NCBI GenBank assembly: GCA_910588925.1
Contig: CAJURV010000033.1
Coordinates: 1-22,449, forward strand
Direction of reading: 5' to 3'
DNA length: 22,449 nucleotides
DNA from: an uncultured Rikenellaceae bacterium
Lineage (GTDB): Bacteria; Bacteroidota; Bacteroidia; Bacteroidales; Rikenellaceae
The notes beneath the pieces are model-generated. The model had not been told where the DNA came from and searched no databases. It worked only from the letters and a program-made list of their open reading frames with translations. Position 1 is the stretch's first letter; each line of letters begins with the position of its first letter. Shown here piece after piece: positions 1 through 22,449 of this stretch. Both the position numbers and the translations under genes were made by a program.

Positions 1-57
1 TTCGATAAGCCGAGCGCAGAAGCAAATGAAATTTGATTATGCCGAGGCGAGAAAATG
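1..57 (+). repeat. Small hairpin element (~60 nt, REP/MITE-like), + orientation, truncated by window edge
   Basis: ttcgataagccgagcgcagaagcaaatgaaatttgattatgccgaggcgagaaaatg. Homologous copies occur at 15349-15414 (rc), 18361-18420 (rc), 18442-18497 (+) and 22329-22395 (+). Confidence 0.8.
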
Positions 58-88
58 TCTGCAATTAAGCGAACGAATATTCTTCAGA

Positions 89-138
89 CTGGCGAGACGG
101 TAAGATACTATAAAACACACTGAAGGTATGCGCATTAA
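89..138 (+). repeat. Repeat unit I (copy at window start), fused directly to element A
   Basis: ctggcgagacggtaagatactataaaacacactgaaggtatgcgcattaa. It is followed immediately by cattcGGCACGAGGG, which is the start of the ~300-nt element. Confidence 0.85.
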
Positions 139-146
139 ACAACACC

Positions 147-460: not shown

Positions 461-542
461 CTCATGCACTGTCCGGCAAGATTCAACAAAAAAATAGCCG
501 GAAGAAATTCCCTCCCGACTATTAACTATCTTCTATCGGTAA

Positions 543-3298: not shown

Positions 3299-3303
3299 TT
3301 TCG

Positions 3304-5406: not shown

Positions 5407-5490
5407 TATGATACTCTATTCGTTAATAACCCGAAGCCTTGGCTGACACGTACATGCGCCGCACCGCAGACTCCGAAAAGCCACGCGAGC

Positions 5491-6741: not shown

Positions 6742-6803
6742 AGTCGTTATATTTTAACGAAATATTTCATGAGGCTCTTGACGGTATCTGTCGAGAAAGC
6801 CCA

Positions 6804-9407: not shown

Positions 9408-10847
9408 ATGGCAATAACAGACCAGAAATTATCGGGTCAGACGAGAGTCGAACACGACCTGCTCGGCGACAAGAACATTCCCGTCGAATACTATTTCGGC
9501 GTACAGACCATGCGTGCCATGGAGAACTTCCACATCAGCCGCGTAAGGCTCAACATGTACCCCGTTTTCATCAAAGCGCTGGCTATGGTGAAACAGGCTG
9601 CAGCGGAAGCTAACTGCGAGCTCGGCATACTCAAGCCCGAAATACGCGACGCCATCGTGGCCGCTTGTAAAGAGGTGCGCGAAGGCAAGTTCGACGACCA
9701 TTTCGTAGTAGACATGGTACAAGGCGGCGCCGGCACATCTACCAACATGAATGCCAACGAGGTGATCGCCAACCGTGCCCTCGAGCTGATGGGCCACAAG
9801 AAAGGCGAATACAAATACTGCCATCCCAACAACCACGTCAACCTGTCGCAGTCTACGAATGACGCCTATCCCACATCGGTGCGCGTGGCTCTTCTCAACC
9901 GCACCCGCGACCTTGTCGACGCACTCAAGGTATTGGTAGAGGCATTCCGTGCCAAAGGCGAAGAGTTCGCCGATGTCATCAAGATGGGCCGCACTCAGAT
10001 GCAGGACGCAGTGCCCATGACCCTCGGACAGGAGTTCGGGGCATACGCTGCCACCCTGTCTGAAGAGATAGAACGCCTCGAGAACAACGTACGTCTGTTC
10101 CTCGAAGTAAACATGGGTGCCACTGCCATCGGTACCGGTATCAACTCCGATCCCGACTACACCCCCACCTGTATCAAATATCTATGCGAGATCACCGGCA
10201 TGCCTATGGTAGCCGCCGGCAACATGATCGAAGCGACCAACGATACCGGCGCGTTCATCATGTACTCATCGGCTGTCAAACGTCTGGCCGTCAAGCTATC
10301 TAAGATAAGCAACGACCTTCGCTTGCTCTCGTCAGGTCCTCGCACCGGTTTCAACGAGATCAACCTGCCTCCCATGCAACCCGGTTCTACCATCATGCCC
10401 GGCAAGGTCAACCCCGTCATACCCGAGGTAGTGAGCCAGATAGCATTCAAGGTGATAGGCAACGACCTCACGGTAACGATGGCGGTAGAGGCCGCACAGC
10501 TCGAGCTTAACGCTATGGAGCCCATCATTGTGCAGGCACTCTTCGAAAACATCGAAATGCTTATCAACGGCATGAACACACTCCGCGAAAGATGTATCGT
10601 AGGCATCACCGCCAACAAAGAGCGTTGCCGCCAAATGGTTTACAACAGCATAGGTTTGGTTACGGCTCTCAACCCCTACCTCGGTTACGAAGTATCTACC
10701 GAGCTGGCGAAAGAGGCCCTCGAAAACAATAAAGGCGTGTACGACCTGGTTCTCGAAAAAGGGCTCATGTCGAAAGAAGAACTCGACAACGTACTCCGCC
10801 CCGAGAACATGGTAAAACCCCGCAAGTTCATCGGCAAGAACGTTTAA
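9408..10847 (+). CDS. aspA: Aspartate ammonia-lyase (aspartase)
   Basis: 479 aa. This is a fumarase/aspartase-family protein with the GSTIMPGKVNP signature. It aligns along its whole length with E. coli AspA as I recall it (DLRLLSSGPRTGFNEINLP, FKVIGNDLTVTMA, GITANKERC, YNSIGLVTALNP). It is clearly closer to aspartase than to FumC. Confidence 0.9.
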   Translation: MAITDQKLSGQTRVEHDLLGDKNIPVEYYFGVQTMRAMENFHISRVRLNMYPVFIKALAMVKQAAAEANCELGILKPEIRDAIVAACKEVREGKFDDHFVVDMVQGGAGTSTNMNANEVIANRALELMGHKKGEYKYCHPNNHVNLSQSTNDAYPTSVRVALLNRTRDLVDALKVLVEAFRAKGEEFADVIKMGRTQMQDAVPMTLGQEFGAYAATLSEEIERLENNVRLFLEVNMGATAIGTGINSDPDYTPTCIKYLCEITGMPMVAAGNMIEATNDTGAFIMYSSAVKRLAVKLSKISNDLRLLSSGPRTGFNEINLPPMQPGSTIMPGKVNPVIPEVVSQIAFKVIGNDLTVTMAVEAAQLELNAMEPIIVQALFENIEMLINGMNTLRERCIVGITANKERCRQMVYNSIGLVTALNPYLGYEVSTELAKEALENNKGVYDLVLEKGLMSKEELDNVLRPENMVKPRKFIGKNV

Positions 10848-10863
10848 CATCTTTATACATATA

Positions 10864-10915
10864 AATATCGGAGGCTGCATCCTTAAAGAAGATGCAGCCT
10901 CCGATATTTATATGT
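10864..10915. terminator. Intrinsic terminator after aspA
   Basis: Perfect ~17-bp stem aatATCGGAGGCTGCATC / GATGCAGCCTCCGATatt with a 9-nt loop, followed by ttatatgtat, starting 17 nt after the aspA stop. Approximate coordinates. Confidence 0.75.
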
Positions 10916-11137
10916 ATATGGTTGTACCTCCCGGCAGCCACTTGGTGAAGGTGATTTGTCGAGTGGCAAAGTACCAGAAACAATGGACTTTCAGAAGTAC
11001 ACGATATGCAGTAAAGCAAAAAAAATAAAGATGAACACTTTAGTACATCATGCTACTAATTATATACATAATGCGACTCATGAAAATCTAATTATGTTAT
11101 AATTTCGAGACAAAAGGTTCGGCATTTACGCTACCGA

Positions 11138-11188
11138 CTGGCGAGACGATAAAAACACCTCACAACTTCCCAAAGCTATGCGCATTGA
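11138..11188 (+). repeat. Repeat unit I (copy a): CTGGCGAGACG…(C)TATGCGCATTGA
   Basis: A ~50-nt unit beginning CTGGCGAGACG(A/G)TAA and ending with the palindromic core ATGCGCAT plus a T(T/G)A flank. Copies occur at 89-138, 11138-11188, 11271-11320 and 22091-22140. Confidence 0.85.
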
Positions 11189-11270
11189 CTGAAACGCTCT
11201 CGCTCCGTATCAGGAGCGCAACACAAGACTTGCGCTTCTTTAGAAGTGCAAAGTATAGTACACAATTCCG

Positions 11271-11320
11271 CTGGCGAGACGATAAGATACTACAAAATAC
11301 ACTGAAAGTATGCGCATTAA
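11271..11320 (+). repeat. Repeat unit I (copy b)
   Basis: ctggcgagacgataagatactacaaaatacactgaaagtatgcgcattaa is about 85% identical to the copies at 89-138 and 22091-22140. Confidence 0.85.
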
Positions 11321-11549
11321 CAAATACATCCATGCGGCACGGGGTGCCGCTCCGCAATAACCTCCACGAATTAACAGAACAGAGGTTGGGAAACTCCCCG
11401 GCGAAACAAAAAAGACATCGGAGCTTAACGACATGCGCATTAACCGCAAGTCGCAGGCATGCTAGCCCGTGTACACAACTAAAGACCGCAGGGCGCCGAA
11501 GTTTTTTAGACCTCAAAAATCGTCGATCGCGGTCGTGTGCCTCGGAGCG
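11321..11549 (+). repeat. Repeat unit II (hairpin-rich ~230-nt module), unoccupied version
   Basis: Colinear with 22141-22449 at roughly 80% identity. Shared segments include catgcGGCACgggGTGCCgctccgc (7-bp hairpin), acatgcgcattaaccgcaagtcgcaggcatgc, gaccgcagggcgccgaa and tttttagacctcaaaaatcgtcgatcgcgg. This copy lacks the 67-nt insert present in the 22141-22449 copy. Confidence 0.8.
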
Positions 11550-12035
11550 TACTCGATGTACGTGAGGATGGCTCACGAACGGGATCGGCGATTTTTGTGG
11601 CTAAAAAGCGACGGAAACAGCCCCACGTTAACCGAACCTCGCGCACACAAACCGACAATTCATGCGTTCAGAGATCGCGTACTTCCTAAACTTCACTAAA
11701 ACTTCCTACACGTACGACCCGAACCTATAAAATCCCTAACGCGTCCCCGAAGGGGATGCACCTGCACGAGCAATACAAAAACGTCCCCAACAAAAACAAA
11801 CGGTACTAAAGCGGAAACGATATGAACTTCCAACTACACTAAACACAACTGCGAAAGACAAGGCACAGAAAGCAACCTAACAACGACCGACCAAAACGCC
11901 GTAAGGCGTACACGCCCGAGCGAAGTGAGGGGCATAAATACGAACAAGCAGATTCAAACACGCCGTAAGGCGTACTAATGTTAGCAAAAAGCCCGAGCGA
12001 AGCGAGAGCAATCAAACACAACTTCCGCCGTTAAA

Positions 12036-12320
12036 TCCCGAGGCACGAGGGATGAGCGGGCCGGAGCCTCCCCCAACGGAGGCCCGCTTATACGGTTGGT
12101 TATTTATAGTATTTATCGCCTTTTTATATAAAATCACTCTCTCGAATGTCACACTCGAGCGGTCCCCCGCATGCTCCGGCCCTTGTGACGCCGGGCAAGG
12201 TATCGCTAAAATCCATGTAAACCACATAATAATAGGAGTCGTGTCAATTCCATCCGGCGAAAAGTTCAGCTAATGCACATATCGTCAAGATAGAGAAAAT
12301 TCACCGCCCCGCAAACCGTC
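12036..12320 (+). repeat. Conserved ~300-nt stem-rich element, copy B
   Basis: See copy A. Same block order and orientation. A different AT-rich insertion lies between blocks 2 and 3. The element ends about 35 nt before the pgi terminator hairpin. Confidence 0.8.
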
Positions 12321-12352
12321 TGACGAAGACACGAAAGCCCTCATTCTCACCC

Positions 12353-12385
12353 AATAATAAAAAAGGGGGTACCTGCCCCCTATCC
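12353..12385 (-). terminator. Intrinsic terminator of the gpsA-pgi operon
   Basis: On the minus strand, GGGGGcaggtaCCCCC is followed by TTTTTTATTATT, immediately after the pgi stop codon. Confidence 0.75.
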
Positions 12386-12389
12386 TTAA

Positions 12390-13748
12390 CTACCTCCCGG
12401 CTATCCGTTTCTTGAGCTTCTCGCCCTCCTCCTCATAACCGGGCTTATTTAGAAGTGCGAACATATTCTTCTTATACTCCTCCACACCCGGCTGATCGAA
12501 CGGATTGACCTCGATAGCATAACCGCTGATGCCCACCGCTTTTTCGAACATATATATAAGCATACCTATGGTCTCGGCACTTATAGAATCCATCTCCACG
12601 GTTATGTTAGGCACTCCGCCGTCCACATGCGCGAGCATGGTACCCAACTCCGCCATACGGTTAACTTCGCTAAGACGTTTGCCTGCCAGGAAATTGAGCC
12701 CGTCGAGATTGGCCCTGTCGCTTTTTATGACGACGCGCCCCGCAGGTTTACCAACGCTTATGACCGTCTCGAACATTATACGTTCGCCCTGCTGTATGTA
12801 TTGCCCCATGGAGTGCAGGTCGGTGGTGAATACCGCGCTGTGGGGCATGATACCCTTGCCCTCCTTACCCTCGCTCTCACCGTAAAGTTGCTTCCACCAC
12901 TCGGCCATATACTGCAACTTGGGCTCGAACGCCACCAACAGCTCCACCTTCTTGCCCAACTTGGTATAGAGGGCATAACGGGCCGCCGCGTATTGCATTG
13001 CAGGATTATCCTCGAAAGGCACGTCTACAGCCGTAGCCTTCTCCATAGCCGCCGCACCTTTGACCAAACGGGCTATATCTATGCCCGCCACAGCGAGGGG
13101 AAGAAGCCCTACCGGAGTCAGAACGGAGAAACGTCCGCCCACATTGTCGGGAATAACGTAACTTTTATACCCCTCCTTGTCGCAAAGCGTACGCAACGCC
13201 CCGCGCGAACTGTCGGTCACAGCCATTATGCGCGAAGCGGCCTCCTTGCGTCCGTACCTCTTCTCAAGCTCCTCGCGCAACAGACGGAAAGCTATGGCCG
13301 GCTCGGTAGTAGTCCCCGACTTGGATATGACTATCAACGAAAACGACCGCTCCTTAATGAATGCGAGCAACTCGGCCATATAATCTTCGCTGATGTTATG
13401 TCCTGCGAAAAGCACCAACGGCTGACCCTCACTACTATCGAAGGCCGCAAACGTTGGGGTCAAAGCCTCCATTACGGCCTTGGCGCCGAGATAAGAGCCG
13501 CCTATGCCTATCACCACTACCACCTCCGAACAAGCACGCAAGGTATCGGCACACTCCATAATATCGGCGATCTGCTTCTTGCCTATCGACGAGGGAAGTG
13601 TCACCCAGCCGAGAAAATCGCTTCCCCTGCCGTCGCCTTTATGAACGGTACGATTGCATCGCTCCATAAGAGGAGCCAAAGCCGCTATGTCTTTTTTGGA
13701 CACGAATTGCGTGATTCTGTCTAACGATATTCTGACCTTTGTTATCAT
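12390..13748 (-). CDS. pgi: Glucose-6-phosphate isomerase
   Basis: 452 aa. It has the N-terminal architecture typical of Bacteroidetes Pgi (…[15 protein letters not shown]…) with a SIS domain and a PGI family fold. Length and motifs are typical. Confidence 0.85.
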
Positions 13749-13813
13749 AAGTTATGTTTTATTTATCGGATCGAGCCTGAAACCCAGTGCAAATATCGGG
13801 CCTACCCGACCAA

Positions 13814-14821
13814 TCACCTCAACTGCCCGGTGAGCGTCTTTATCTCCGCCGCCGCCGACCTCTTCATATACAGTATGCGATAGACGGTGTCGGCTATGGG
13901 CATGACCACCTTGCGCGACCTGTTGATCTGCTCTATGCAATACGATGCGTAATACCCCTCGGCCACCATGTTCATCTCTATCTGCGCGCTACGCACCGAA
14001 TAGCCTTTGCCTATCATCATACCGAAACTGCGGTTACGGCTGAACTGCGAATAGGAGGTCACCAACAGGTCGCCCAAATAGGCGGAGGTATTGGTATCGC
14101 GCTCCGACGGATAGGTGCTCTCGAGAAAATGGTTCATCTCTTTGGCCGCGTTGGCTATGAGCACGCTCTGGAAATTGTCGCCGTAACCCAGCCCGTGACA
14201 AATACCTACGGCTATGGCATATATGTTTTTAAGCACGGCGGCATACTCGGTGCCGTATATATCAGTGGCCGTGTTGGTATTTATGTATGGAGTGGAGAAC
14301 TTGCCGGCCAGCATGCGTGCGTTGTCCTCGCTCTTGCACACGAGATTGAGATACGACAGACGCTCGAGAGCCACCTCCTCGGCATGACAAGGCCCGGTGA
14401 TGATGCCTATACGGTCGAACGGCAGCCCGTAATGTTCATTGACATACTCGGCAACGGTGACATAACTGTCCGGAATTATACCCTTGATGGCCGAAAGCAC
14501 GAACTTATCCTCCAGCGACACGGTCAGGGGCTCGAGGGTCTTACCGAGGAATGCCGAGGGAGTGGCCAACACCACTATATCGGCCCACGAGACAATCTCG
14601 TTAACATCGCCCGATATATGCAACTTGCCGGTATCGAAATGTACACCGCTAAGATATTTGGGATTGTTGCCGTGCTCGAGTATATGACCGGCGACCTCGC
14701 CGTTACGTATATGCCAGCCCACGACAGGCTCGTTCTCCAACAACATCTTGACGAGCGCGGTAGCCCAACTTCCGTAACCTATCACCGCCACACGTGCGGA
14801 TTCGTCTATTCTGAAACTCAT
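13814..14821 (-). CDS. gpsA: NAD(P)H-dependent glycerol-3-phosphate dehydrogenase
   Basis: The N-terminal Rossmann motif VAVIGYGSWATAL and overall similarity to the GpsA family. The supplied track begins at a TTG at 14845 (MCAKKIIVM-). The first ATG, at 14821 (MSFRIDESARVAVIGYGSW), gives the canonical N-terminus. The gene lies 65 nt upstream of pgi on the same strand, so it is probably co-transcribed. Confidence 0.85.
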   Translation of the reverse strand: MSFRIDESARVAVIGYGSWATALVKMLLENEPVVGWHIRNGEVAGHILEHGNNPKYLSGVHFDTGKLHISGDVNEIVSWADIVVLATPSAFLGKTLEPLTVSLEDKFVLSAIKGIIPDSYVTVAEYVNEHYGLPFDRIGIITGPCHAEEVALERLSYLNLVCKSEDNARMLAGKFSTPYINTNTATDIYGTEYAAVLKNIYAIAVGICHGLGYGDNFQSVLIANAAKEMNHFLESTYPSERDTNTSAYLGDLLVTSYSQFSRNRSFGMMIGKGYSVRSAQIEMNMVAEGYYASYCIEQINRSRKVVMPIADTVYRILYMKRSAAAEIKTLTGQLR

Positions 14822-15142
14822 TACAATAATCTTTTTTGCACACAATGCTCTCGAACACAGGGATTATTAGCCCATGCTATCGGAAACACCGGATACATAC
14901 AACACGGACCGCGGGAAAGATCTTGCGAAAATATCGCAGGCCCCTCTACGCTAAACTATTCTCCCTACAAAACAGAAAGCCCCAAGGTCCGAATTGGTTT
15001 TAAAGATAGGTATTTTATTCCAAGCATGCAAATCGCCAGCTCCGGACGTTGCCTTTCCGACACTTTCGTATGAATAACCGCCTTATTTTCACAGACATCT
15101 CAACCACCGTAGACAAAGCCAGAGCACGATCGCTTTTGCGCT

Positions 15143-15307
15143 CGGCTTATTCGTATCTTTGGCTGTGCCTTAGATACTCCGCCTCGACAAACCCAAACAA
15201 GTTTGCTTTTGTATTCGGCTTATTCGTATCTTTGACTTCGTCTTAGATACTGCGCCTCAACAAACCCAAACAAGTTTGTTTTTGTATTCGGCTTATTCGT
15301 ATCTTTG
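15143..15307 (+). repeat. 2.3 tandem copies of a 73-bp repeat, each carrying TTTG…TATCTTTG promoter-like motifs
   Basis: The unit cggcttattcgTATCTTTG-(n)-cttagatact-cgcctc-acaaacccaaacaaGTTTGyttttgtatt occurs at 15143-15215, 15216-15288 and 15289-15307 (partial). Each unit carries a TAnnTTTG -7 motif about 21 nt downstream of a TTTG, which is the Bacteroidetes sigma-A architecture. It lies ~130 nt upstream of the hydrolase ATG. The first 13 nt (tgcgctcggctta) are shared with the small hairpin element family. Confidence 0.7.
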
Positions 15308-15348
15308 CACCTGCATGCAACGGAAAAACGTTCGCTTCGATGCAGATG

Positions 15349-15414
15349 TTTTCTCGCCCCGGCAATCGAAACTTCGTTTCATTGCGCTCGGCTCATCGAA
15401 AACGTCAGCTTTAT
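15349..15414 (-). repeat. Small hairpin element copy (reverse orientation) in the hydrolase 5' region
   Basis: gttttctcgccccggcaatcgaaacttcgtttcattgcgctcggctcatcgaaaacg is the reverse complement of the 22329-22395 copy at about 90% identity. The internal hairpin GAAAC-UUCG-GUUUC has a UUCG tetraloop. Confidence 0.75.
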
Positions 15415-15437: not shown

Positions 15438-16757
15438 ATGAACCGTATTTTAGCCATTCTTTTACCGCTCGTGGCGATATGTTCCGCCCGGGCCGCCGAC
15501 CCCGCCGATCCGGCCGCTCTGCGCAAAGCGACCGAACGTAAAATAGAGAACTACCTTATGCAAGGCGTCGCAGGACGGTATTTCCCCGGAGGGCAGTTGG
15601 TGATAGGGAACAAAAGCGGCGTCATATACTCTACGAGCGTAGGTTCGTTCGACTACAGCGGAGGGCGCAAAGTAACCGACACCGACCTGTACGACCTTGC
15701 CTCGGTAACCAAAGTGATGTCCACGACCTTGGCCGTCATGACCCTTTACGGAGAGGGGCGCATAAAGCTCTCCGACAGGTTGGGGAGCCTGGTTCCGCGA
15801 TATAGCGGCAGCGCCGTAGCCGACATAACCGTACGCGACATGCTACGCCACACCTCCGGCATGAAACCGGTGATATACGTATGCGAACTGACATGCAGGC
15901 CTATAGCCGACTCCGTAAAGCTATTGAGCGCCAAACGCGACTCTCTGCACACCGTGGCCGTAGACGCCTCCACATACGTGGTAGACACATTCGTTTACGA
16001 CAACCGATACGTAAGCGCCACCCCCGACAGTACCACCCTGTTCGACCTCTCGCCGAGGTTATGGGTGCGTCGGTCCCTGCTCTCGGCCATCGACTCTGCC
16101 GTAGTAGCCTCCTATCAACCTGAACGACGCGGACGTTACCGATACAGCTGCCTCAACTTCTATCTGCTGCAACAAGCCATAGAGGAGCTTAGCGGAGAGA
16201 CGCTCGACAAATTCGCAGGTTCGATATATCGACGCATGGGGCTCACCCGCATAGGCTACAAACCGTTGGAGTGGAGCGACATAGGCCAGATAGCCCCCAC
16301 CGAATACGACCTGCTCATGCGACACGACACCGTACGCGGCTATGTACACGACGAGATGAGCGCCTCGCTCGGCGGGGTATGCGGCAATGCGGGACTATTC
16401 GCCGACGGACTCGACGTAGCCTCGCTATGTCAGATGTTCCTGTCCGGCGGCAGATGGAACGGCATGCAGATAATAAAACCGGAGGTGTTGCGTCTGTTCA
16501 CCTCGGAACAGATGTCTCCCTCGAGCCGTGTCACCCGCGGACTCGGTTTCGACAAGCTGAAAACGGAGCCTTACAGCACAGCCTCTTACGGCCACACGGG
16601 CTTCACTGGCACCTATTTCTGGTGCGACCCGTCCATAGATCTTTATGCGGTATTGCTAACCAACGGCGTCTACCCGTCGCGAATAGACAAAACCATAGGC
16701 GGCAGTTATCGCAAACGGATATGGGAACTGGCCAAAGAGTTGAGGAAAATACAATAA
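15438..16757 (+). CDS. Serine hydrolase (class C beta-lactamase/esterase family), exported
   Basis: The start is reassigned to the ATG at 15438 (MNRILAILLPLVAICSARA signal peptide). The 5' extension in the track runs through the tandem repeats and is spurious. The protein carries the S-x-x-K active-site motif (ASVTK) and C-terminal HTGFTGT, both typical of the beta-lactamase/transpeptidase fold. Confidence 0.8.
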   Translation: MNRILAILLPLVAICSARAADPADPAALRKATERKIENYLMQGVAGRYFPGGQLVIGNKSGVIYSTSVGSFDYSGGRKVTDTDLYDLASVTKVMSTTLAVMTLYGEGRIKLSDRLGSLVPRYSGSAVADITVRDMLRHTSGMKPVIYVCELTCRPIADSVKLLSAKRDSLHTVAVDASTYVVDTFVYDNRYVSATPDSTTLFDLSPRLWVRRSLLSAIDSAVVASYQPERRGRYRYSCLNFYLLQQAIEELSGETLDKFAGSIYRRMGLTRIGYKPLEWSDIGQIAPTEYDLLMRHDTVRGYVHDEMSASLGGVCGNAGLFADGLDVASLCQMFLSGGRWNGMQIIKPEVLRLFTSEQMSPSSRVTRGLGFDKLKTEPYSTASYGHTGFTGTYFWCDPSIDLYAVLLTNGVYPSRIDKTIGGSYRKRIWELAKELRKIQ

Positions 16758-17097: not shown

Positions 17098-17940
17098 GTG
17101 ACAGATTTCATCTCCGACATATCGCGCTTCGCATTCTTGCAGAACGCACTTACGGCATCGTTGTTATGCGGCATAGTGTGCGGCATAACCGGCAGTTATA
17201 TCGTAGCCCGCAGGCTGGTATTCCTTAGCGGAGGCATCACCCACGCCTCTTTCGGCGGCATAGGGATGGCCTGCTATCTCGGATTCGACCCGCTTTTGGG
17301 GGCATTGCTCTTCTCCGTGGCCTCGGCTTTAGGGCTCGAGCGTTTCATTGCGACAGGTAAAGTACGCGAAGACTCAGCCATAGGCGTACTGTGGGCATTG
17401 GGGATGGCGGCCGGTATAATATTCATATTCCTGACACCCGGATACACCCCAAACCTAATGAGCTTTCTTTTCGGGTCGATACTCACCATAACTACGCCTC
17501 TGCTGTGGTGGAGCGCGCTGTTGGCGGCCTCTCTGCTGATCCTGTTCGGGCTGTGGGGTAGAAACATAATGTACGTGGCATTCGACGCAGGATTCTCCGA
17601 GACACAGAAGATGCCGGTACGTGCCGTAAACGCCGTAATGCTGGCCGTGGTGGCCGCCGCCGTAGTTATCACCATACGTTTGGTAGGTGTGATGCTACTG
17701 GTATCGCTCTTCACCATACCGCCGCTCGTTTCGGCCTCTGTTGCCCGACGTTTCAGCCGCATAACCGCCGGTGCTGTCGCAGTGGCGGTGGCAGGACTCG
17801 TTTCCGGGCTTTTCATCAGCTACCACACCCAGCTTCCGCCGGGGGCCTCGTCGGTAATCGTACTCATCGTTCTATACCTCATCGCAAGGCTACTGAAAAC
17901 AGCTTACACAAAGAGACGTTTACTACGGGCCAAAGCGTAA
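17098..17940 (+). CDS. Metal (Zn/Mn) ABC transporter permease, ZnuB/MntB (ABC-3) family
   Basis: 280 aa with 7-8 predicted TM helices and the N-terminal motif FLQNALTASLLCGIVCGITGSYIVARRLVFLSGGITHASFGG, typical of ABC-3 permeases. The apparent start codon is GTG. No ATPase or substrate-binding partner gene is adjacent. Confidence 0.75.
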   Translation: MTDFISDISRFAFLQNALTASLLCGIVCGITGSYIVARRLVFLSGGITHASFGGIGMACYLGFDPLLGALLFSVASALGLERFIATGKVREDSAIGVLWALGMAAGIIFIFLTPGYTPNLMSFLFGSILTITTPLLWWSALLAASLLILFGLWGRNIMYVAFDAGFSETQKMPVRAVNAVMLAVVAAAVVITIRLVGVMLLVSLFTIPPLVSASVARRFSRITAGAVAVAVAGLVSGLFISYHTQLPPGASSVIVLIVLYLIARLLKTAYTKRRLLRAKA

Positions 17941-18118: not shown

Positions 18119-18200
18119 GCGGATGTGGTGTAATTGGTAGCCACGCCAGACTTAGGATCTGGTGGCGCAAGCCGTGGGGGTTCGAGTCCCTTCATCCGCA
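18119..18200 (+). tRNA. tRNA-Leu (anticodon TAG)
   Basis: Perfect 7-bp acceptor stem GCGGATG/CATCCGC with discriminator A. Anticodon stem-loop CCAGA-CTTAGGA-TCTGG. A long (13-nt) variable arm marks it as type II. The T-loop is TTCGAGT. CCA is not encoded. Confidence 0.85.
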
Positions 18201-18210
18201 CAAAACGAAC

Positions 18211-18248: not shown

Positions 18249-18360
18249 ATTCGATAGATCGCACAATATCACACGCGTTTTTCGCTTCGGGCAATCGAAA
18301 CCCATTTTAGTTGTACAAACCTCTCGTCACATATAATTTTAAACGTTGAATTTCATTCTA

Positions 18361-18420
18361 CATTTTCTCGCCTCGGCATAACCAAATTTCATTTGCTTCT
18401 GCTCTCGGCTTACCGAAAAC
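18361..18420 (-). repeat. Small hairpin element copy (reverse orientation)
   Basis: cattttctcgcctcggcataaccaaatttcatttgcttctgctctcggcttaccgaaaac is the reverse complement of positions 1-57 at about 93% identity. Confidence 0.8.
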
Positions 18421-18441
18421 GTTCGTTTTTATGCAGAAGTT

Positions 18442-18497
18442 TTCGATAGACCGGGCGCAATGAAATTAAGTGTCGATTGTATTCGGTTTATCGAAAA
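18442..18497 (+). repeat. Small hairpin element copy (+ orientation), diverged; forms an inverted pair with 18361-18420
   Basis: ttcgatagaccgggcgcaatgaaattaagtgtcgattgtattcggtttatcgaaaa. The two copies face each other across a ~20-nt spacer (gttcgtttttatgcagaagtt). Confidence 0.6.
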
Positions 18498-18601
18498 TAT
18501 TCATGTTATTGATGTCATACTCATTATGTGTACACGCATGCAATCATTCGTAAACATGGATGTAATATCTATGTTTACGAATGATTCTTATGCGGTGAGA
18601 G

Positions 18602-18856
18602 TCATTTGCGGAGGCGATTACGCACGTCTACCAGTATGCGCAGACCTGACAGTATGTTGCTCCACATGTGTGAGGATAACAATCTTTCTTTGGCCTCTTC
18701 TATGATTGTCGATGGAGACATTCGATATTTGAGCTCCTCGACATCCTGAGAGAGGTAAGTCTCGTTGACCAGACGCATGACACGTATTTTCTTACGCGCC
18801 CTCTGCAGATCGGCCATGGACTTTATGCGGCTATATTTCGTCTCATGCTTATTCAT
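18602..18856 (-). CDS. Small soluble basic protein, third gene of the YtxH/holin-like triad
   Basis: The product is MNKHETKYSRIKSMADLQRARKKIRVMRLVNETY… If the start is the ATG at 18856 it is 84 aa. Starts at 18865 or 18901 are also possible. The ATG is embedded in the stop region of the upstream gene (GATGAATAAG; ATG and TAA share nucleotides in different frames), which implies translational coupling. No TM segment. Confidence 0.5.
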   Translation of the reverse strand: MNKHETKYSRIKSMADLQRARKKIRVMRLVNETYLSQDVEELKYRMSPSTIIEEAKERLLSSHMWSNILSGLRILVDVRNRLRK

Positions 18857-19208
18857 CGTCGTCATCGTCTTTGTCGTTGAAGAACATGGGTACGAATACA
18901 CGCACCATTTTATTTCTGAAAGGGGCGGGATGTCTGAATATGCAGACCCCTGCGATCAGGTAGACAAAACCGAGGATCACTGCCGCCCACACCCATGAGC
19001 CTATCAGCATGTCGATCAGATATACGAACACGCCGGTAAAGAGCATGAAAGCGAGGTTTACAAGGAACAGACACAACATGAGTGCGACCGCTCCTCCGGC
19101 GACCGACGACAACCCGTCGACAGCCGCTAATTTAGCGGAGTCGACGCGTAGCCGTACATATTGTTTCAGATCCTCCGAGATTCTGTCGGTCAGTCTTTCG
19201 TCAGCCAT
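18849..19208 (-). CDS. Holin-like small membrane protein (phage-holin-3-like / Holin-X family) with poly-Asp tail
   Basis: 119 aa. Two TM helices (AGGAVALMLCLFLVNLAFMLFTGVFVYL; WVWAAVILGFVYLIAGVCIF) and a C-terminal KDDDDDE tail. This is the arrangement found in Bacteroidetes genes annotated 'phage holin family protein', and those genes follow a YtxH gene. Confidence 0.6.
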   Translation of the reverse strand: MADERLTDRISEDLKQYVRLRVDSAKLAAVDGLSSVAGGAVALMLCLFLVNLAFMLFTGVFVYLIDMLIGSWVWAAVILGFVYLIAGVCIFRHPAPFRNKMVRVFVPMFFNDKDDDDDE

Positions 19209-19214
19209 AAGACA

Positions 19215-19589
19215 CTACTTTTTATTGTCCGTTTTCTTTTCGTCGCTCTTGTCGTTTTTGTCGCTCTTGTTCTTGTCTTTCGACAATACTTCGCGTACGG
19301 CATCGAGCTCTTCGTCGGCCATCTCACGGCCTGCCGATATGGCTTCCGAAAGACGTTCGCGGCCTTTGCGATACGATTCGGAAACTTTGTCGCGGCCCTG
19401 TTCGTAAGCCTCTTTGGCTTTCTGTTTGCCGGTCGTGTACAAGTCGTTCATTTTATCTTTGCCTTCGGCAACGGCCTTGCCTATCTTCTGACGGGTTACT
19501 TCGCCTTTGTCGGGCGCAAACAAAACTGCTACTACGGCACCTACCGTGGCGCCACCCAAAAATGCCATAAAATTACCTTTAGTGCTCAT
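19215..19589 (-). CDS. YtxH-domain protein (DUF948-like), N-terminal TM anchor + K/E-rich helical domain
   Basis: 124 aa. MSTKGNFMAFLGGATVGAVVAVLFAP is followed by an extended charged helix (KGEVTRQKIGKAVAEGKDKMNDLYTTGKQKAKEAYEQGRDKVSESYRKGRERLSEAI…) and a Lys/Asp-rich tail. Confidence 0.7.
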   Translation of the reverse strand: MSTKGNFMAFLGGATVGAVVAVLFAPDKGEVTRQKIGKAVAEGKDKMNDLYTTGKQKAKEAYEQGRDKVSESYRKGRERLSEAISAGREMADEELDAVREVLSKDKNKSDKNDKSDEKKTDNKK

Positions 19590-19881
19590 AACAATAAATT
19601 TTTAAATAGTTGATAAAATAAGTATATATCCCACACTTGCAAATTTGATACCAAAAGAGAATGTCTGTAGCGATAATTATGATTAAGCTCGTGATATATG
19701 CCAACCGCAGACCGCGTTTTTGCTGTTGATAGCTCGGCATGGCTGTAGCGTTAGTCGGAAAGAGGATAGGGTAGCGGAACATTTATCTGATCGGAATGTC
19801 TCTGCGTTTGCTGTGTATATGTTGTAATACGGTTTCGTACTAAAATTCCCACGAAGTCGGGGCATATTTCCAAAATATAGT

Positions 19882-19889
19882 TATATTTG
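19882..19889 (+). promoter_or_regulatory. Candidate -7 promoter element (TATATTTG) for the nfeD-flotillin operon
   Basis: TAnnTTTG match ~25 nt upstream of the NfeD ATG. The -33 element is imperfect (TTTC). Confidence 0.4.
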
Positions 19890-19914
19890 TAAATAACTAA
19901 ACCGTATTGATCTT

Positions 19915-20469
19915 ATGGAATGGTTCTCTTCTATGGATAGTCTCGAAAAGGTGTTATGGATAATAGCATTGACGAGCAGTCTTGTATTCATTGTACAGAC
20001 CGTCATGACTTTCATGGGCATGGATGGCGACGGCGATCCGAGCGGTTGCGATGTCGGCGTCTCGGAGGATATGCCTCTCGAGTTGTTCACTTTCCGTAAT
20101 TTCGTCAATTTCTTTCTCGGCTTCTCGTGGACGGCCATAGCGCTTTACGGACGCACGGGGTTGGTTGTCACCGTAGTGTCGGGCGTCATAGCCGGTGTCC
20201 TTTTGGTTGCCGCCGTCATGTATATGTTCTACCTGATGAGCCGTATGGAACAGTCGGGCAATATAGATCTGCAAAAAAGCGCGGTGGGATGTCGTGGCAC
20301 TGTCTATATCGCCATTCCCGAGGGCGGACGCGGCAAAGTGCAGATAACCATACAGGGGGCGGTCCGCGAATACGATGCCGTCACGGATGGCGAATCTCTC
20401 GTAAGCGGCACGCCAGTAAAGGTTGTGGGCGTTGTCGACGACTCGTTGCTCAAAGTAGGGCGTCTGTAG
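19915..20469 (+). CDS. NfeD-family membrane protein (OB-fold, flotillin-associated)
   Basis: 184 aa. Three TM helices are followed by a C-terminal beta-rich segment (GTVYIAIPEGGRGKVQITIQGAVREYDAVTDGESLVSGTPVKVVGVVDDSLLKV), typical of the NfeD OB-fold. It sits immediately upstream of an SPFH/flotillin gene. Confidence 0.75.
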   Translation: MEWFSSMDSLEKVLWIIALTSSLVFIVQTVMTFMGMDGDGDPSGCDVGVSEDMPLELFTFRNFVNFFLGFSWTAIALYGRTGLVVTVVSGVIAGVLLVAAVMYMFYLMSRMEQSGNIDLQKSAVGCRGTVYIAIPEGGRGKVQITIQGAVREYDAVTDGESLVSGTPVKVVGVVDDSLLKVGRL

Positions 20470-20502
20470 CTATATGTTTGAAAATCAAATTATCAAAATA
20501 TA

Positions 20503-21918
20503 ATGGAAGATATCAGTTTCACACTACCCATTATCGTGTTCGTCGCTGTTTTGTTCGTCACCTTCGCGGCGATATTGTCACGATACAAACGTTGTCCCTC
20601 CGACAAGATACTCGTCGTGTACGGTAAGACCGGGCGCAACAAGTCTGGAGGCAAAAGTTCCGCACGATGCATACACGGCGGTGCGGCATTCATATGGCCC
20701 GTATTCCAGAGCTATGCTTTTCTCGATCTGACTCCCATAGCCATAGAGTGCAACCTTACCAACGCTCTAAGTAAACAGAATATACGCGTGGACGTGCCCT
20801 GTAGATTTACCGTCGGCATATCCACCGACGCCGACAGCATGACCAATGCGGCGGAACGTCTTTTGGGATTGCGTCTCGAGAACATAAAGGATTTGGCTCA
20901 GGATATATTGTTCGGACAGCTTCGTCTTGTTATCGCCACCATGGATATAGAGGAGATAAATGCCGACCGCGACAAGTTCCTTGCTAATGTGAGCGTCAAT
21001 GTAGACGCCGAGTTGCGTAAGATAGGCCTTAAGCTTATCAACGTGAACGTAACGGATATACGCGATGAGTCAGGCTATATAGAGGCGTTGGGTAAGGAGG
21101 CTGCCGCCAAGGCCATAAACGATGCCAAAAAGAGTGTTGCCGAGCAGAATCGTTTCGGTGAGATCGGTAAGGCCGAGGCCGACAGAGACAAGGATATACG
21201 TATAGCCGAAACGGTACGCGACACCCGCATACGCACCTCGGAGGCTAACGCTAACGCCGTAGAGGGCGAGAATACCGCAAAGATAACCATTGCCAATTCC
21301 GATGCGGAACGTCGTCAGAAGGAGGCCGAAGCCTCGCGTAAGGCTACGGCGGCGGAGAAAGTTCAGGCGGCCAAAGCTCTCGAGGAGGCCTATATGGCGG
21401 AGAAAGAGGCTGAAATGGCACGTGCGGAACGAGAGAAAGCCACTCGCATGGCCAACATAGTGGTTCCGGCACAGATAGAGAAAGAGAAGGTCATAATAGA
21501 CGCCGAAGCCGATGCCGAACGTTTCCGAAGATTGGCGCAGGGCGAGGCCGACGCCATATTCGCCAAGAAAGAGGCCGAGGCACGCGGTAATTTCGAGATA
21601 CTGACCAAGCAGGCCGAAGGTTACGACCGTTTGGTGAAAGCGGCGGCCGGCGATCCCGAAAAGGCGGTTATGTTGCTCGTGACTGACAAACTTCCGGAGC
21701 TGGTGCGTACTCAAGTGGAGGCTGTCAAGAATATCAAGATAGACAAAGTCACCGTATGGGACGGAGGTGCCGGCAAAGACGGCAAAACCTCTACCGCCGG
21801 TTTCATCTCCGGCATGATGAATTCGGTGCCGCCACTCAACGACCTGTTCAAAATGGCCGGCATGAACTTGCCCGCCTACCTCAAGGGGACAGAGGATGCC
21901 GAACAGGTTGAGGAGTAA
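20503..21918 (+). CDS. Flotillin-family (SPFH/band-7) membrane scaffold protein
   Basis: 471 aa. An N-terminal TM anchor (LPIIVFVAVLFVTFAAIL) is followed by an SPFH domain and then a long Ala/Glu-rich coiled coil (EAEASRKATAAEKVQAAKALEEAYMAEKEAEMARAEREKATRMANIVVPAQIEKEKVIIDAEADAERFRRLAQGEADAIFAKKEAEARGNFEILTKQAEGYDRL), typical of the flotillin domain. Confidence 0.85.
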   Translation: MEDISFTLPIIVFVAVLFVTFAAILSRYKRCPSDKILVVYGKTGRNKSGGKSSARCIHGGAAFIWPVFQSYAFLDLTPIAIECNLTNALSKQNIRVDVPCRFTVGISTDADSMTNAAERLLGLRLENIKDLAQDILFGQLRLVIATMDIEEINADRDKFLANVSVNVDAELRKIGLKLINVNVTDIRDESGYIEALGKEAAAKAINDAKKSVAEQNRFGEIGKAEADRDKDIRIAETVRDTRIRTSEANANAVEGENTAKITIANSDAERRQKEAEASRKATAAEKVQAAKALEEAYMAEKEAEMARAEREKATRMANIVVPAQIEKEKVIIDAEADAERFRRLAQGEADAIFAKKEAEARGNFEILTKQAEGYDRLVKAAAGDPEKAVMLLVTDKLPELVRTQVEAVKNIKIDKVTVWDGGAGKDGKTSTAGFISGMMNSVPPLNDLFKMAGMNLPAYLKGTEDAEQVEE

Positions 21919-21945
21919 CTCCGAAGTATTATATACTTAAATAAG

Positions 21946-21982
21946 ATGTGGACGATATATGATTATCGCCCACATTTTTTTA
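21946..21982 (+). terminator. Intrinsic terminator after the flotillin gene
   Basis: ATGTGGaCGAT-atatgatt-ATCGCCCACAT (11-bp stem with one mismatch) followed by TTTTTTTAG, ~28 nt after the stop. Confidence 0.7.
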
Positions 21983-22090
21983 GTGATTTTATTCTAGTGC
22001 CGTAATAAGTTGGGATTTTCTTGTCGGTATTTCATATAGACTATTCAGGGGGGACGTTGTTTTGTTGTTCGACAAAGACTATGTTTTCGG

Positions 22091-22140
22091 TTGGCGAGAC
22101 GGAAAGATACTATAAAACACACTAAAGGTATGCGCATTAG
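22091..22140 (+). repeat. Repeat unit I (copy c)
   Basis: ttggcgagacggaaagatactataaaacacactaaaggtatgcgcattag. Confidence 0.85.
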
Positions 22141-22449
22141 CAAAAGCCATACATGCGGCACGTGGTGCCGCTCCGCGATAACCGCTACGAATTAACCCGA
22201 CAGAGGTCGGGGAAGCCGCTTGCGAGCAAATACCATCACTTCACACCCAAAGACATGCGCATTAACCGCAAGTCGCAGGCATGCTTGCCCTAGCACACAA
22301 CCGCAGCCCGCAGGGCGCCGAACTTTTTCGGTAAGCCGAGCGCAATGAAACGAAGTTTCGATTGCCGAGGCGAGAAAAAGTGCGCGAAGCGAAGCTTTTT
22401 AGACCTCAAAAATCGTCGATCGCGGGCGTGCGCCTCCGGAGCTAATGTG
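22141..22449 (+). repeat. Repeat unit II, occupied version (carries nested small element), truncated by window end
   Basis: Colinear with 11321-11549. This copy contains an extra 67 nt at 22329-22395. Confidence 0.8.
22329..22395 (+). mobile_element. Nested insertion of the small hairpin element inside repeat unit II, flanked by a TTTTT duplication
   Basis: Unoccupied site at ~11495: gcgccgaaGTTTTTTagacctc. Occupied site: gcgccgaaCTTTTT-[cggtaagccgagcgcaatgaaacgaagtttcgattgccgaggcgagaaaaagtgcgcgaagcgaagc]-TTTTTagacctc. The empty-site/filled-site pair and the repeated TTTTT are consistent with a target-site duplication. Confidence 0.55.

What the first reader, a model, noticed from the sequence alone, without database searches (positions are those of the whole stretch)
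22329..22395. A ~60-nt hairpin element (at least 6 copies here) caught in the act: one copy is inserted inside another repeat with a TTTTT duplication
Copies of TTCGATAAGCCGAGCGCA-(hairpin GCAATGAAAC-GAAG-GTTTCGATTGC)-CCGAGGCGAGAAAA are at 1-57 (+), 15349-15414 (-), 18361-18420 (-), 18442-18497 (+) and 22329-22395 (+). Fragments are at 18271-18300 and 15131-15155.

The 22329-22395 copy interrupts unit II exactly where the paralogous unit II at ~11495 is uninterrupted. It is bracketed by TTTTT on both sides. That empty-site/filled-site pair is the classical signature of transposition.

The internal hairpin has a UUCG/GAAG tetraloop and would be very stable in RNA. The element could therefore also act post-insertion as an mRNA stabiliser or terminator, as REP elements do.

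Copies cluster in 5' and 3' UTR positions of the hydrolase gene and the tRNA.
Basis: seen in the sequence. Interest (0 to 1): 0.7.

Follow-up and report, generated by a model that had tools for sequence, protein, structure and literature searches.

The report
Mobile hairpin repeat of gut Bacteroidales
A 72-base hairpin-forming repeat unit was recently inserted here; it belongs to an apparently undescribed repeat family found across gut Bacteroidales (mainly Alistipes), which inserts next to a GAAC motif, builds head-to-tail arrays and sits at both joints of an 18-kb inversion between strains.

Summary
The window has four full units of one repeat family (A 1-74+, D 15330-15403-, B 18345-18420-, C 22324-22395+). 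It also has a palindromic variant (E), three degenerate 73-nt units and one fragment.

Copy C is a real insertion. Four assemblies of a sister lineage (98.4% identical) have the uninterrupted site at the same locus, and every paralogous unit is uninterrupted. The net gain is 71 nt.

Copies A and B are also absent from the sister lineage. They lie, inverted to each other, at the two joints of an 18.3-kb inversion.

The unit is N-TTTTCGATAAGCCGAG-[variable hairpin]-GCCGAGGCGAGAAAA-N' plus a 12-20 nt tail ending in GAAC. Base pairing is supported by compensatory changes.

The three new copies each lie just 3' of (G/C)AAC, and 89-91% of first units have AAC there. This fits the head-to-tail arrays. 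The flanking "TTTTT duplication" is not a classical target-site duplication.

No match was found in Rfam or the searchable literature. The enzyme and any RNA role are untested. I favour a trans-acting enzyme that works on folded single-stranded DNA.

The parts
22324..22395 (+). Unit C. A 72-nt full unit: T-TTTTCGGTAAGCCGAG-C-GCAATGAAACGAAGTTTCGATTGC-CGAGGCGAGAAAA-A, plus the tail GTGCGCGAAGCGAAGC. It is a recent insertion into non-coding unit U3.
   Evidence: filled against empty site, net +71 nt. (46.7 bits). (DNA fold z = -2.5, including the outer stem ACTTTTTC/GAAAAAGT).
22320..22323 (+). Target motif GAAC immediately 5' of unit C. A related stretch is already present in the empty sites: GAGAC in the orthologues and GAAG or GAAGG in the paralogues.
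   Evidence: The same AAC motif precedes 89-91% of 98 first units.
1..74 (+). Unit A, cut by the window edge (its first 4 nt are missing). In other assemblies of this lineage it is the innermost unit of a head-to-tail array of 2 to at least 6 units. It lies at the left joint of the 18.3-kb inversion.
   Evidence: (I1).
18345..18420 (-). Unit B, 95% identical to A and inverted relative to it. It is inserted directly 3' of unit E as a tandem insertion, at the right joint of the inversion. It is absent from the sister lineage.
   Evidence: (I1).
18421..18498 (-). Unit E, a palindromic variant in which the 3' arm is replaced by the inverted 5' arm, plus the tail CTTCTGCATAAAAACGAAC. It is present in both lineages. 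It forms a near-perfect 58-nt hairpin.
   Evidence: (z = -5.6).
15330..15403 (-). Unit D. It has the same hairpin subtype as C (93% over the core). It is present in both lineages and ends about 35 nt upstream of the ATG of the beta-lactamase-like gene, antisense to it.
   Evidence: I2; 96% in L120.
15108..15306 (-). Three degenerate 73-nt tandem units of the same family. Copy number varies between strains.
   Evidence: D3, D6; 18.7, 17.1 and 11.2 bits.
18266..18314 (-). Fragment F, a 3' half of a C/D-type unit (GTTTCGATTGCCCGAAGCGAAAAACG). It is conserved in the sister lineage.
   Evidence: The profile hit is only weak (E = 3.8).
11489..11522 (+). Paralogous empty site in unit U2: CAGGGCGCCGAAGTTTTTTAGACCTCAAAAATCG.

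Best explanation
The feature is one unit of a non-autonomous, structured, mobile repeat family that is widespread in Bacteroidales, above all Alistipes and Rikenellaceae.

Anatomy. A unit is 72-87 nt. It consists of N-TTTTCGATAAGCCGAG-n-GCAGAG-[variable stem-loop]-CTATGC-CGAGGCGAGAAAA-N', followed by a 12-20 nt tail that ends in (G/C)AAC. The core folds into one long imperfect hairpin. The outer stem is ACN-TTTTC paired with GAAAA-N'-GT. The inner stem is GCAGAG/CTATGC, with a conserved G.A mismatch and a bulged G. The top of the hairpin is variable.

Shown:
(1) Unit C was gained recently at a site that is empty in sister strains and in paralogues.
(2) Units A and B were also gained in this lineage. 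They sit inverted to each other at the two joints of an 18.3-kb inversion.
(3) All three new units lie immediately 3' of (G/C)AAC.
(4) The family forms head-to-tail arrays whose copy number changes between near-identical strains.
(5) The stems are kept by compensatory changes.

Inferred:
- Whole units are inserted at junction-like sites, GAAC|(G)TTTT. Each unit ends in GAAC, so an existing unit offers a new target, and that would explain the direct arrays.
- The inserting agent is a trans-acting enzyme that recognises the folded single strand. My first candidate is a Y1 HUH transposase of the IS200/IS605 or RAYT kind, which inserts 3' of a fixed short motif. A tyrosine recombinase acting on a folded site is the second candidate.
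- The inversion arose either by homologous recombination between two new inverted copies or by a replicative, inversion-type transposition.

Any effect on transcripts would be secondary and is untested.
For: Insertion of C. Filled and empty sites are compared. There are 4 orthologous empty assemblies, at least 8 filled ones, and all paralogues are empty.

Family and distribution. Searches give the consensus. One search finds 171 profile hits: 86 singles, 32 doublets and 7 triplets, all in direct orientation, with periods of 72-79 or 84-87 nt.

Structure.
- In one search the base 5' of TTTT covaries with the base 3' of AAAA: GC 56, CG 16, AT 5, TA 3.
- In one search there are 78 distinct hairpin tops among 120 units, and pairing is kept.
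- In one search, 88.8% of cells are paired against 83.1 +/- 0.4 in shuffles (0 of 500 reach the observed value). There are 64 double-change cells against 20.4, and slid controls give 34-52%.
- In one search the consensus core folded as DNA gives -14.9 kcal/mol, z = -3.5.

Target. The three dated events are C GCCGAAC|TTTTTAG, S1 ACCAAC|GTTTGAAG and S2 ACGAAC|GAATATCC. The left flank of 98 first units reads G 60%, A 90%, A 91%, C 89%.

Inversion. Searches show gene order in several independent assemblies of each type. Searches show that sites S1 and S2 are uninterrupted in the sister lineage and that each is split by a unit in the window lineage.

Arrays are dynamic. The array at A has 2, 3, at least 4 and at least 6 units in different assemblies.

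No coding partner in cis. No protein family recurs next to the element.

Strand. The top strand folds better in 60 units and the bottom strand in 21. The downstream gene is co-oriented in 53 of 76 cases. Both fit a single-strand-specific process.
Against: No candidate enzyme was identified. No ORF with an HUH...Y motif occurs in any locus held, and I could not inspect whole genomes.

Only three dated insertions define the target rule. Two of them, A and B, are entangled with the inversion.

The short homology at every joint (6-8 nt) is equally what microhomology-mediated template switching would leave.

Array size changes can arise by slippage without any transposition.

The conserved columns AGCCGAG and GCCGRGGCGAGAAAA were imposed by my search pattern, so divergent relatives and the true extent of conservation are not sampled.

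The orientation statistics rest on crude ORF calls.

Order-wide sequence conservation of the unpaired arms could instead reflect a selected RNA or protein-binding function.
Confidence: 0.72

Rival explanations
1. Passive spread without a dedicated enzyme. The hairpin stalls replication. The nascent strand switches template to another unit through the short homology ...GAAC/TTTT... and switches back, copying one unit into a look-alike site. Arrays grow and shrink by slippage or unequal crossing-over.
For: Every dated joint carries 6-8 nt of homology to the unit junction. Array copy number varies between near-identical strains. No transposase was found nearby. The new copies resemble copies a few kb away: A and B are 96% identical to the array between the epimerase and PagL genes, and C is 93% identical to D.
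Against: AAC precedes 89-91% of 98 first units in many species, which is tighter than microhomology alone needs. The unpaired arms are conserved in sequence across families of Bacteroidales. That points to recognition by a protein.
Confidence: 0.2
2. Classical MITE. A cut-and-paste element with terminal inverted repeats, moved by a DDE transposase, which duplicates a 5-bp T-rich target.
For: An inverted repeat ACGTTTTC...GAAAACGT exists. CTTTTT flanks copy C.
Against: The right-hand repeat is internal, because a 12-20 nt tail follows it. The left T-run belongs to the element in nearly all copies. The flanking repeats of the three dated events are 6, 8 and 6 nt and always cover the same motif. 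The two 'TIR' halves covary by complementarity, which points to pairing rather than to two identical protein-binding ends. A test for duplication of arbitrary flank sequence on singletons gave no signal (1.80 against 1.70 +/- 0.10). No parent insertion sequence is seen.
Confidence: 0.06
3. Primarily a functional transcript element, such as a 3'-end stabiliser, a processing or termination signal, or a binding site for a conserved RNA-binding protein. Selection would keep it, and its mobility would be incidental.
For: Order-wide conservation of the unpaired arms. Compensatory changes. The top strand tolerates G.T pairs. Copies are preferentially co-oriented with flanking genes: (+,+) 35 against (-,-) 10.
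Against: No U-tract follows the hairpin, and the terminator scan finds nothing at copy C. Distances to neighbouring genes are broad, with interquartile ranges of about 35-290 and 44-365 nt. No gene family is associated. Copies come and go between strains that are 98.4% identical. There is no Rfam family. This reading is compatible with, not exclusive of, the mobile-element reading.
Confidence: 0.15
4. The 71 nt is ancestral and was precisely deleted elsewhere. This is the refutation condition the reader named.
For: Deletion between the CTTTTT direct repeats is mechanistically possible.
Against: It would require the same precise loss in the orthologous site of the sister lineage and in every paralogous unit of every strain. 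The filled state is confined to one tight clade, at least 99.6% identical. The indel equals one whole family unit.
Confidence: 0.03
5. An attC-like folded recombination site used by an integron-type or other tyrosine recombinase. On this reading the arrays are 'cassette-less' site clusters.
For: The feature is a roughly 60-nt imperfect hairpin with conserved ends, a conserved extrahelical G and a variable top. The junction AAC|GTT recalls the inverse-core and core sites of attC, RYYYAAC and GTTRRRY (own knowledge).
Against: There are no cassettes between units (spacers are 12-20 nt). No integrase is nearby. GTTTTCG does not fit GTTRRRY. No attC model was available to test this.
Confidence: 0.04

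Closest known systems
REP / BIME elements and their RAYT (TnpA-REP) transposases; REPINs
   Same: Both are small, extragenic, high-copy imperfect hairpins with a conserved foot (here GCAG, against GTAG or GCTG). Both have lineage-variable stems kept by compensatory change. Neither codes for a protein. Both are often clustered, show a strand bias, and are presumed to be moved in trans by an enzyme acting on single-stranded DNA. RAYT subclass 2.6 is mostly found in Bacteroidetes (PMC6006769).
   Different: The unit here is 72-87 nt with two long conserved unpaired arms and a tail, against 20-40 nt for REPs. Units cluster head-to-tail, not as inverted pairs. The same sequence is conserved across families of an order instead of differing by species. 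The published REPs associated with subclass 2.6 are 24-35 nt hairpins with a GCTG or GCTAG foot, and none resembles this unit. No flanked RAYT gene was found.
IS200/IS605-family elements and their non-autonomous derivatives (PATEs)
   Same: Insertion occurs immediately 3' of a fixed short motif, without a true target duplication. Recognition depends on a hairpin. There is an orientation bias.
   Different: Those elements have a hairpin near each end, and their right-end cleavage motif differs from the target. Here there is one hairpin, and the unit's own 3' end equals the target motif. No TnpA or TnpB is nearby.
BOX elements of Streptococcus pneumoniae and other modular repeats (RUP, Correia, ERIC)
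   Same: They are modular, structured intergenic repeats in which a central module can be repeated in tandem. They are polymorphic between strains and can affect neighbouring genes.
   Different: The sequences, hosts and module logic are unrelated. BOX has boxA-boxB(n)-boxC. Correia and RUP have terminal inverted repeats and fixed duplications.
Integron attC sites
   Same: A folded single-strand site of about 60 nt with conserved ends, extrahelical bases and a variable top. An AAC...GTT motif lies at the recombination junction.
   Different: There are no gene cassettes and no integrase. The core sequence does not fit GTTRRRY.

Membership tests
REP/REPIN-RAYT system | Short (20-40 nt) imperfect palindrome with a conserved 5' tetranucleotide foot (GTAG or a related sequence) | tested here: inconclusive
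   The hairpin has a conserved GCAG(AG) foot. However, the conserved unit is 72-87 nt with long unpaired arms.
REP/REPIN-RAYT system | Copies organised as inverted pairs (REPIN) or alternating orientation (BIME) | tested here: not met
   All 39 arrays in 105 loci are head-to-tail. The window arrays (E-B, and the 73-nt units with D) are also direct.
REP/REPIN-RAYT system | A cognate single-copy RAYT gene flanked by the repeats | not testable with these tools
   No ORF with an HUH...Y motif occurs in any locus held, but whole genomes could not be inspected. Published Bacteroidetes RAYT-associated REPs do not resemble the unit.
MITE (DDE-type) | Terminal inverted repeats at the very ends | tested here: not met
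   The inverted repeat ACGTTTTC/GAAAACGT is followed by a 12-20 nt tail that belongs to the unit.
MITE (DDE-type) | Target-site duplication of fixed length and arbitrary sequence | tested here: not met
   The flanking repeats of the three dated events are 6, 8 and 6 nt and all cover AAC|(G)TTT. There is no signal of arbitrary-flank duplication in singletons.
IS200/IS605-derived element (PATE) | Insertion 3' of a specific tetra- or pentanucleotide without duplication | tested here: met
   All three dated insertions lie 3' of (G/C)AAC. AAC precedes 89-91% of 98 first units.
IS200/IS605-derived element (PATE) | Subterminal hairpins at both ends, and a related autonomous insertion sequence with tnpA | tested here: inconclusive
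   There is one main hairpin per unit. The tail has only weak pairing. No tnpA or tnpB lies near any copy.
Integron attC | R''/R' core sites (RYYYAAC...GTTRRRY), gene cassettes and an intI gene | tested here: not met
   The junction is GAAC|GTTTTCG. Spacers of 12-20 nt hold no ORF. No integrase is nearby. No attC model was available.
Intrinsic terminator | G+C-rich hairpin followed directly by a U-tract | tested here: not met
   The hairpin is followed by CCGAGGCGAGAAAA. The scan finds no terminator at copy C.
Any Rfam family | Score at or above the family's gathering threshold | tested here: not met
   The only hit is tRNA-Leu. With permissive thresholds, only chance miRNA-model hits on hairpins appear.

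The most novel reading that the evidence does not exclude
This could be an ancient, order-wide family of folded single-strand elements kept in Bacteroidales chromosomes by a host-encoded enzyme that has not yet been linked to it. It would use a rule not described for REP or MITE elements: insertion of whole units at a site that mimics the unit's own junction, GAAC|GTTTT. That rule would produce head-to-tail arrays. The family would be active enough in human-gut Alistipes to create strain-level insertions and an 18-kb inversion. If so, it would be a new class of bacterial 'replicator', and a ready-made strain marker and driver of rearrangement in a major gut genus.
Probability: 0.3. Interest if true: 0.75.

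Novelty: new variant of a known kind. Interest (0 to 1): 0.62.

Why it matters
Small non-coding mobile repeats are well studied in Proteobacteria (REP/REPIN, Correia) and in pneumococci (BOX, RUP). In gut Bacteroidales they are hardly described.

This family offers three things:
- A case with clean empty and filled sites, which are rare for REP-like elements.
- A testable insertion rule (3' of GAAC) that would explain why the units pile up head to tail.
- A direct link to a large chromosomal inversion between co-circulating strains.

In practice, these units break metagenome assemblies: several contigs here end inside the arrays. They create strain-level structural variation next to housekeeping genes. 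They could also serve as strain markers. Finding the enzyme would extend knowledge of single-strand DNA transposition, or domesticated transposases, to a major gut lineage.

Tried and rejected
- RNAalifold on the MAFFT alignment of all 120 units found only three invariant pairs, because the variable loop was misaligned. I replaced it with anchor-based counts and with a gapless alignment of the 48-nt core class.
- Rfam at gathering and at permissive thresholds gave nothing beyond the tRNA.
- I looked for a gene that recurs next to the element by clustering 1298 ORFs from 105 loci. The largest cluster covers only 6 loci, and the top clusters are housekeeping proteins.
- A six-frame motif scan for HUH...Y transposases in all loci held gave 0 hits.
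- I looked for a published cognate. The Bertels 2017 supplement is not held. Table S1 of Quentin 2018 lists the REPs linked to subclass 2.6, and none is similar. Full-text searches for the sequence and for Alistipes or Bacteroidales repeats gave nothing specific.
- A scan of viral contigs gave 6 hits, of which 3 are real, in 2.9 million contigs, so phages are not the vehicle.
- A test for true target-site duplication on singletons was not significant. A first script for this failed because of overlapping regex matches.
- I considered and rejected a CRISPR array (no unique spacers, and the unit structure differs), type III toxin-antitoxin RNA repeats (no toxin gene), and a gene-specific leader or riboswitch (no gene association).
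- I did not use the metagenome scan or the protein-homology searches. Without a trustworthy Bacteroidales RAYT query, and with no taxonomy in the output, they could not settle the enzyme question.

Full report
1. WHAT IS IN THE WINDOW

The window is a Bacteroidales chromosome segment. Its map is:
- a DUF4493/PCMD surface-protein cluster on the minus strand (543-8975);
- a fumarase-like lyase (9408-10847);
- phosphoglucose isomerase and glycerol-3-phosphate dehydrogenase on the minus strand (12390-14845);
- a beta-lactamase-family gene (15439-16757);
- an ABC-3 permease (17098-17940);
- tRNA-Leu (18119-18201);
- a small holin-like operon on the minus strand;
- an SPFH gene (20503-21918).

Three long non-coding stretches are 80-88% identical paralogues. 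They are 58-540, about 10930-12390, and 21918 to the window end. I call them U1, U2 and U3.

A profile of the family finds four full units, A, B, C and D. It also finds three degenerate 73-nt tandem units at 15108-15306. Weaker matches mark a palindromic variant (E) and a fragment (F).

2. COPY C IS AN INSERTION

I looked up the SPFH protein in public assemblies and retrieved ten contigs from the same species.
- Six are 99.6-99.96% identical to the window and carry copy C.
- Four (L002, L003, L006, L009) are 98.4-98.6% identical over 18420-22328. Their alignment to the window stops exactly at 22328.

Reading the sequence shows an uninterrupted site in those four, GCGCCGAGACTTTTTAGACCTC. The window has GCGCCGAAC-TTTTT-[67 nt]-TTTTT-AGACCTC. 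Between fixed anchors the site is 34 nt when empty and 105 nt when filled, a net gain of 71 nt. Every other copy of the U unit, in every strain, is empty. The gained stretch corresponds to one whole family unit, 22324-22395 (72 nt).

3. THE FAMILY

I scanned one genome per prokaryotic species for AGCCGAG-N18-40-GCCGRGGCGAGAAAA. Three are chance hits in G+C-rich non-Bacteroidetes. The other 105 come from Alistipes, Rikenellaceae and other Bacteroidales MAGs from gut and rumen.

The consensus unit is (GAAC)-N-TTTTCGATAAGCCGAG-n-GCAGAG-[variable stem-loop]-CTATGCCGAGGCGAGAAAA-N', plus a 12-20 nt tail ending in GAAC.

The profile finds 171 copies in these loci: 86 single, 32 double and 7 triple. 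All arrays are head to tail, with periods of 72-79 or 84-87 nt.

No protein family recurs next to the units. The neighbours are ordinary housekeeping genes. The units are essentially absent from viral contigs. There is no Rfam match, and I found nothing on this family in the searchable literature.

4. STRUCTURE

The core folds into one long imperfect hairpin. Folded as DNA, the consensus gives -14.9 kcal/mol with z = -3.5, and copy C gives z = -2.5. It has three parts.
(a) An outer stem, ACN-TTTTC paired with GAAAA-N'-GT.
(b) An inner stem, GCAGAG/CTATGC, with a conserved G.A mismatch and a bulged G.
(c) A variable top.

The base just 5' of the T-run covaries with the base just 3' of the A-run: GC 56, CG 16, AT 5, TA 3. 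When the 5' base is not the default G, it pairs with its partner in 28 of 33 units, counting wobble pairs. In copy C this pair is T-A.

Among 120 units there are 78 different hairpin tops that keep pairing. Examples are CCGAA/TTCGG, GCAAA/TTTGC, GAATG/CATTC, CGTGC/GCACG and CCAAG/CTTGG.

On a gapless alignment of 65 units:
- 88.8% of cells pair, against 83.1 +/- 0.4 in shuffles (0 of 500 reach the observed value);
- 64 cells carry a change on both sides, against 20.4 in shuffles;
- 10 of 18 pairs show compensatory change;
- sliding the partners gives 34-52% pairing.

Two caveats apply. The invariant columns AGCCGAG and GCCGRGGCGAGAAAA were imposed by the search pattern. The structure was also derived from the consensus, which favours it over the slid versions.

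The top strand folds better than the bottom strand in 60 units, against 21 the other way, because of G.T pairs. Units tend to be co-oriented with their neighbouring genes: 53 of 76 for the downstream gene, by a crude ORF call. Both observations point to a strand-specific single-stranded form, either DNA or RNA.

5. TWO MORE NEW COPIES, AND AN INVERSION

Look-ups with the ABC-3 and PCMD proteins show that the 18.3-kb segment from U1 to tRNA-Leu is inverted between the two strain types. Each arrangement is seen in several independent assemblies.

In the sister lineage both breakpoints are uninterrupted:
- S1...ACCAAC|GTTTGAAG... (L120 12615-12640, read in element orientation);
- S2...ACGAAC|GAATATCC..., which is the end of unit E joined to the U unit (L002 near 7925).

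In the window lineage each new joint carries a unit:
- S2-left, then B, then S1-right, at window 18345-18420;
- S1-left, then the A array, then S2-right, at window 1-74 and L128 12036-12225.

A and B are 95% identical and inverted to each other (I1). Simple recombination between A and B in a window-type ancestor would leave copies at both joints, so it could not produce the empty sites. The window arrangement is therefore the derived state. It needs either two insertions followed by recombination between them, or one insertion plus a replicative inversion. I cannot tell which.

With C, that makes three units gained in about 40 kb since the two lineages diverged by 1.6%. In the same region D, E and the array between the epimerase and PagL genes are shared.

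Array sizes also change. The array at A has 2, 3, at least 4 and at least 6 units in different assemblies. The downstream array has 2 units or 1.

6. THE INSERTION RULE

In element orientation the three dated events are:
- GCCGAAC|[unit]|TTTTTAG;
- ACCAAC|[unit]|GTTTGAAG;
- ACGAAC|[unit]|GAATATCC.

The stretch repeated on both sides is 6, 8 and 6 nt long (CTTTTT, CAACGTTT, CGAACG). It sits at a different register each time, but it always covers AAC|(G)TTT. That is not how a fixed staggered cut behaves.

It fits insertion of a unit of the form N-TTTT...(G/C)AAC immediately 3' of a (G/C)AAC motif. It fits equally a crossover or a template switch inside a short look-alike of the unit junction.

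Across species, the flank of 98 first units reads G 60%, A 90%, A 91%, C 89% before N. A test for duplication of arbitrary flank sequence gave nothing. There was only a weak link for the base before AAC.

Each unit ends in GAAC, so an existing unit is itself a target. B did land directly 3' of E. This explains the head-to-tail arrays.

7. MECHANISM

Shown: recent gain of whole units, target preference, a conserved and covarying hairpin, direct arrays, an inversion bounded by new copies, and no coding capacity or linked gene.

Inferred: a trans-acting enzyme recognises the folded single strand and inserts units 3' of GAAC. The closest working analogy is the Y1 HUH transposases of IS200/IS605 and the REP-associated RAYTs. 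A RAYT subclass typical of Bacteroidetes exists (PMC6006769). However, its published repeats are short hairpins with a GCTG foot, unlike this unit, and I found no such gene in the DNA I could read.

The main rival is enzyme-free template switching at microhomology. An RNA-level role (stabiliser, processing site, protein-binding site) is compatible with the data and is untested. A plain intrinsic terminator is unlikely, because no U-tract follows the hairpin.

8. COMPARISON WITH KNOWN ELEMENTS, NOVELTY AND VERDICT

The element works like a REP/BIME or IS200-type non-autonomous repeat. It fails defining features of REPINs (inverted pairs, a short unit) and of MITEs (terminal inverted repeats, a fixed arbitrary duplication). 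Its link to a RAYT or TnpA could not be tested. I therefore rate it a new variant of a known kind.

The "caught in the act" claim is confirmed and extended. The TSD reading and the hairpin-stability claim are not supported.

Interest is moderate to high: an undescribed, order-wide, currently active repeat family in a major gut genus, with a testable insertion rule and a documented role in a large inversion.

Noticed in passing
window 58-540, ~10930-12390, 21918-22449 (continues about 900 nt beyond the window, see L001 11417-12846): Three paralogous non-coding 'U' units, 80-88% identical and up to about 1.4 kb long, each with several ATGCGCAT palindromes. They contain no Pfam-matching ORF and have no Rfam match. 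An internal segment is swapped between strains (L001 11935-12010 against L002 11860-11910). One unit abuts each inversion-related joint. Their nature is unknown.
   Followed up: partly
L120 11088-12483 (sister-lineage strain; corresponds to window position 18201/18202): The sister lineage carries an islet of about 1.38 kb with an SduA_C (Shedu-like defence) gene, inserted at the 3' end of tRNA-Leu. It is bounded by a 17-nt direct repeat of the tRNA end (gagtcccttcatccgca). The window lacks it.
   Followed up: partly
window 15116-15307: A 73-nt tandem repeat (three copies here, a different number in other strains) turns out to be a degenerate array of the same element family. Its plus strand carries TATCTTTG, which resembles the Bacteroidetes -7 promoter box (own knowledge). 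The array lies 130-320 nt upstream of the beta-lactamase-like gene.
   Followed up: partly
window 10847-10925: A long palindrome (35-nt arms, 91% complementary, 9-nt loop) lies directly after the stop codon of the fumarase-like gene. It is A+T-rich and hits only miRNA hairpin models by chance.
   Followed up: no
window 22378-22395: The tail of copy C contains two overlapping GCGAAGC heptamers. This sequence is known as an unusually stable DNA mini-hairpin (own knowledge). Several other units have one in the tail, for example CGTCTGCGAAGCGAAC.
   Followed up: no
window 18440-18497: Unit E has replaced its 3' arm with an inverted copy of its 5' arm. The result is a near-perfect 58-nt hairpin (RNA z = -5.6). 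This suggests repair or copying templated by the hairpin itself.
   Followed up: partly
window 2132-3298 and L128-L137: The OMP-like gene inside the DUF4493/PCMD cluster differs in length (388, 387, 385, 384 or 356 aa) among strains, several of which encode an identical neighbouring PCMD protein. This looks like a variable surface-protein cassette.
   Followed up: no
window 1; contigs SRR10593866_733, L130, L132, L136: Several public contigs start or end inside the A array, and the window itself starts 4 nt into unit A. These arrays therefore break short-read metagenome assemblies.
   Followed up: partly
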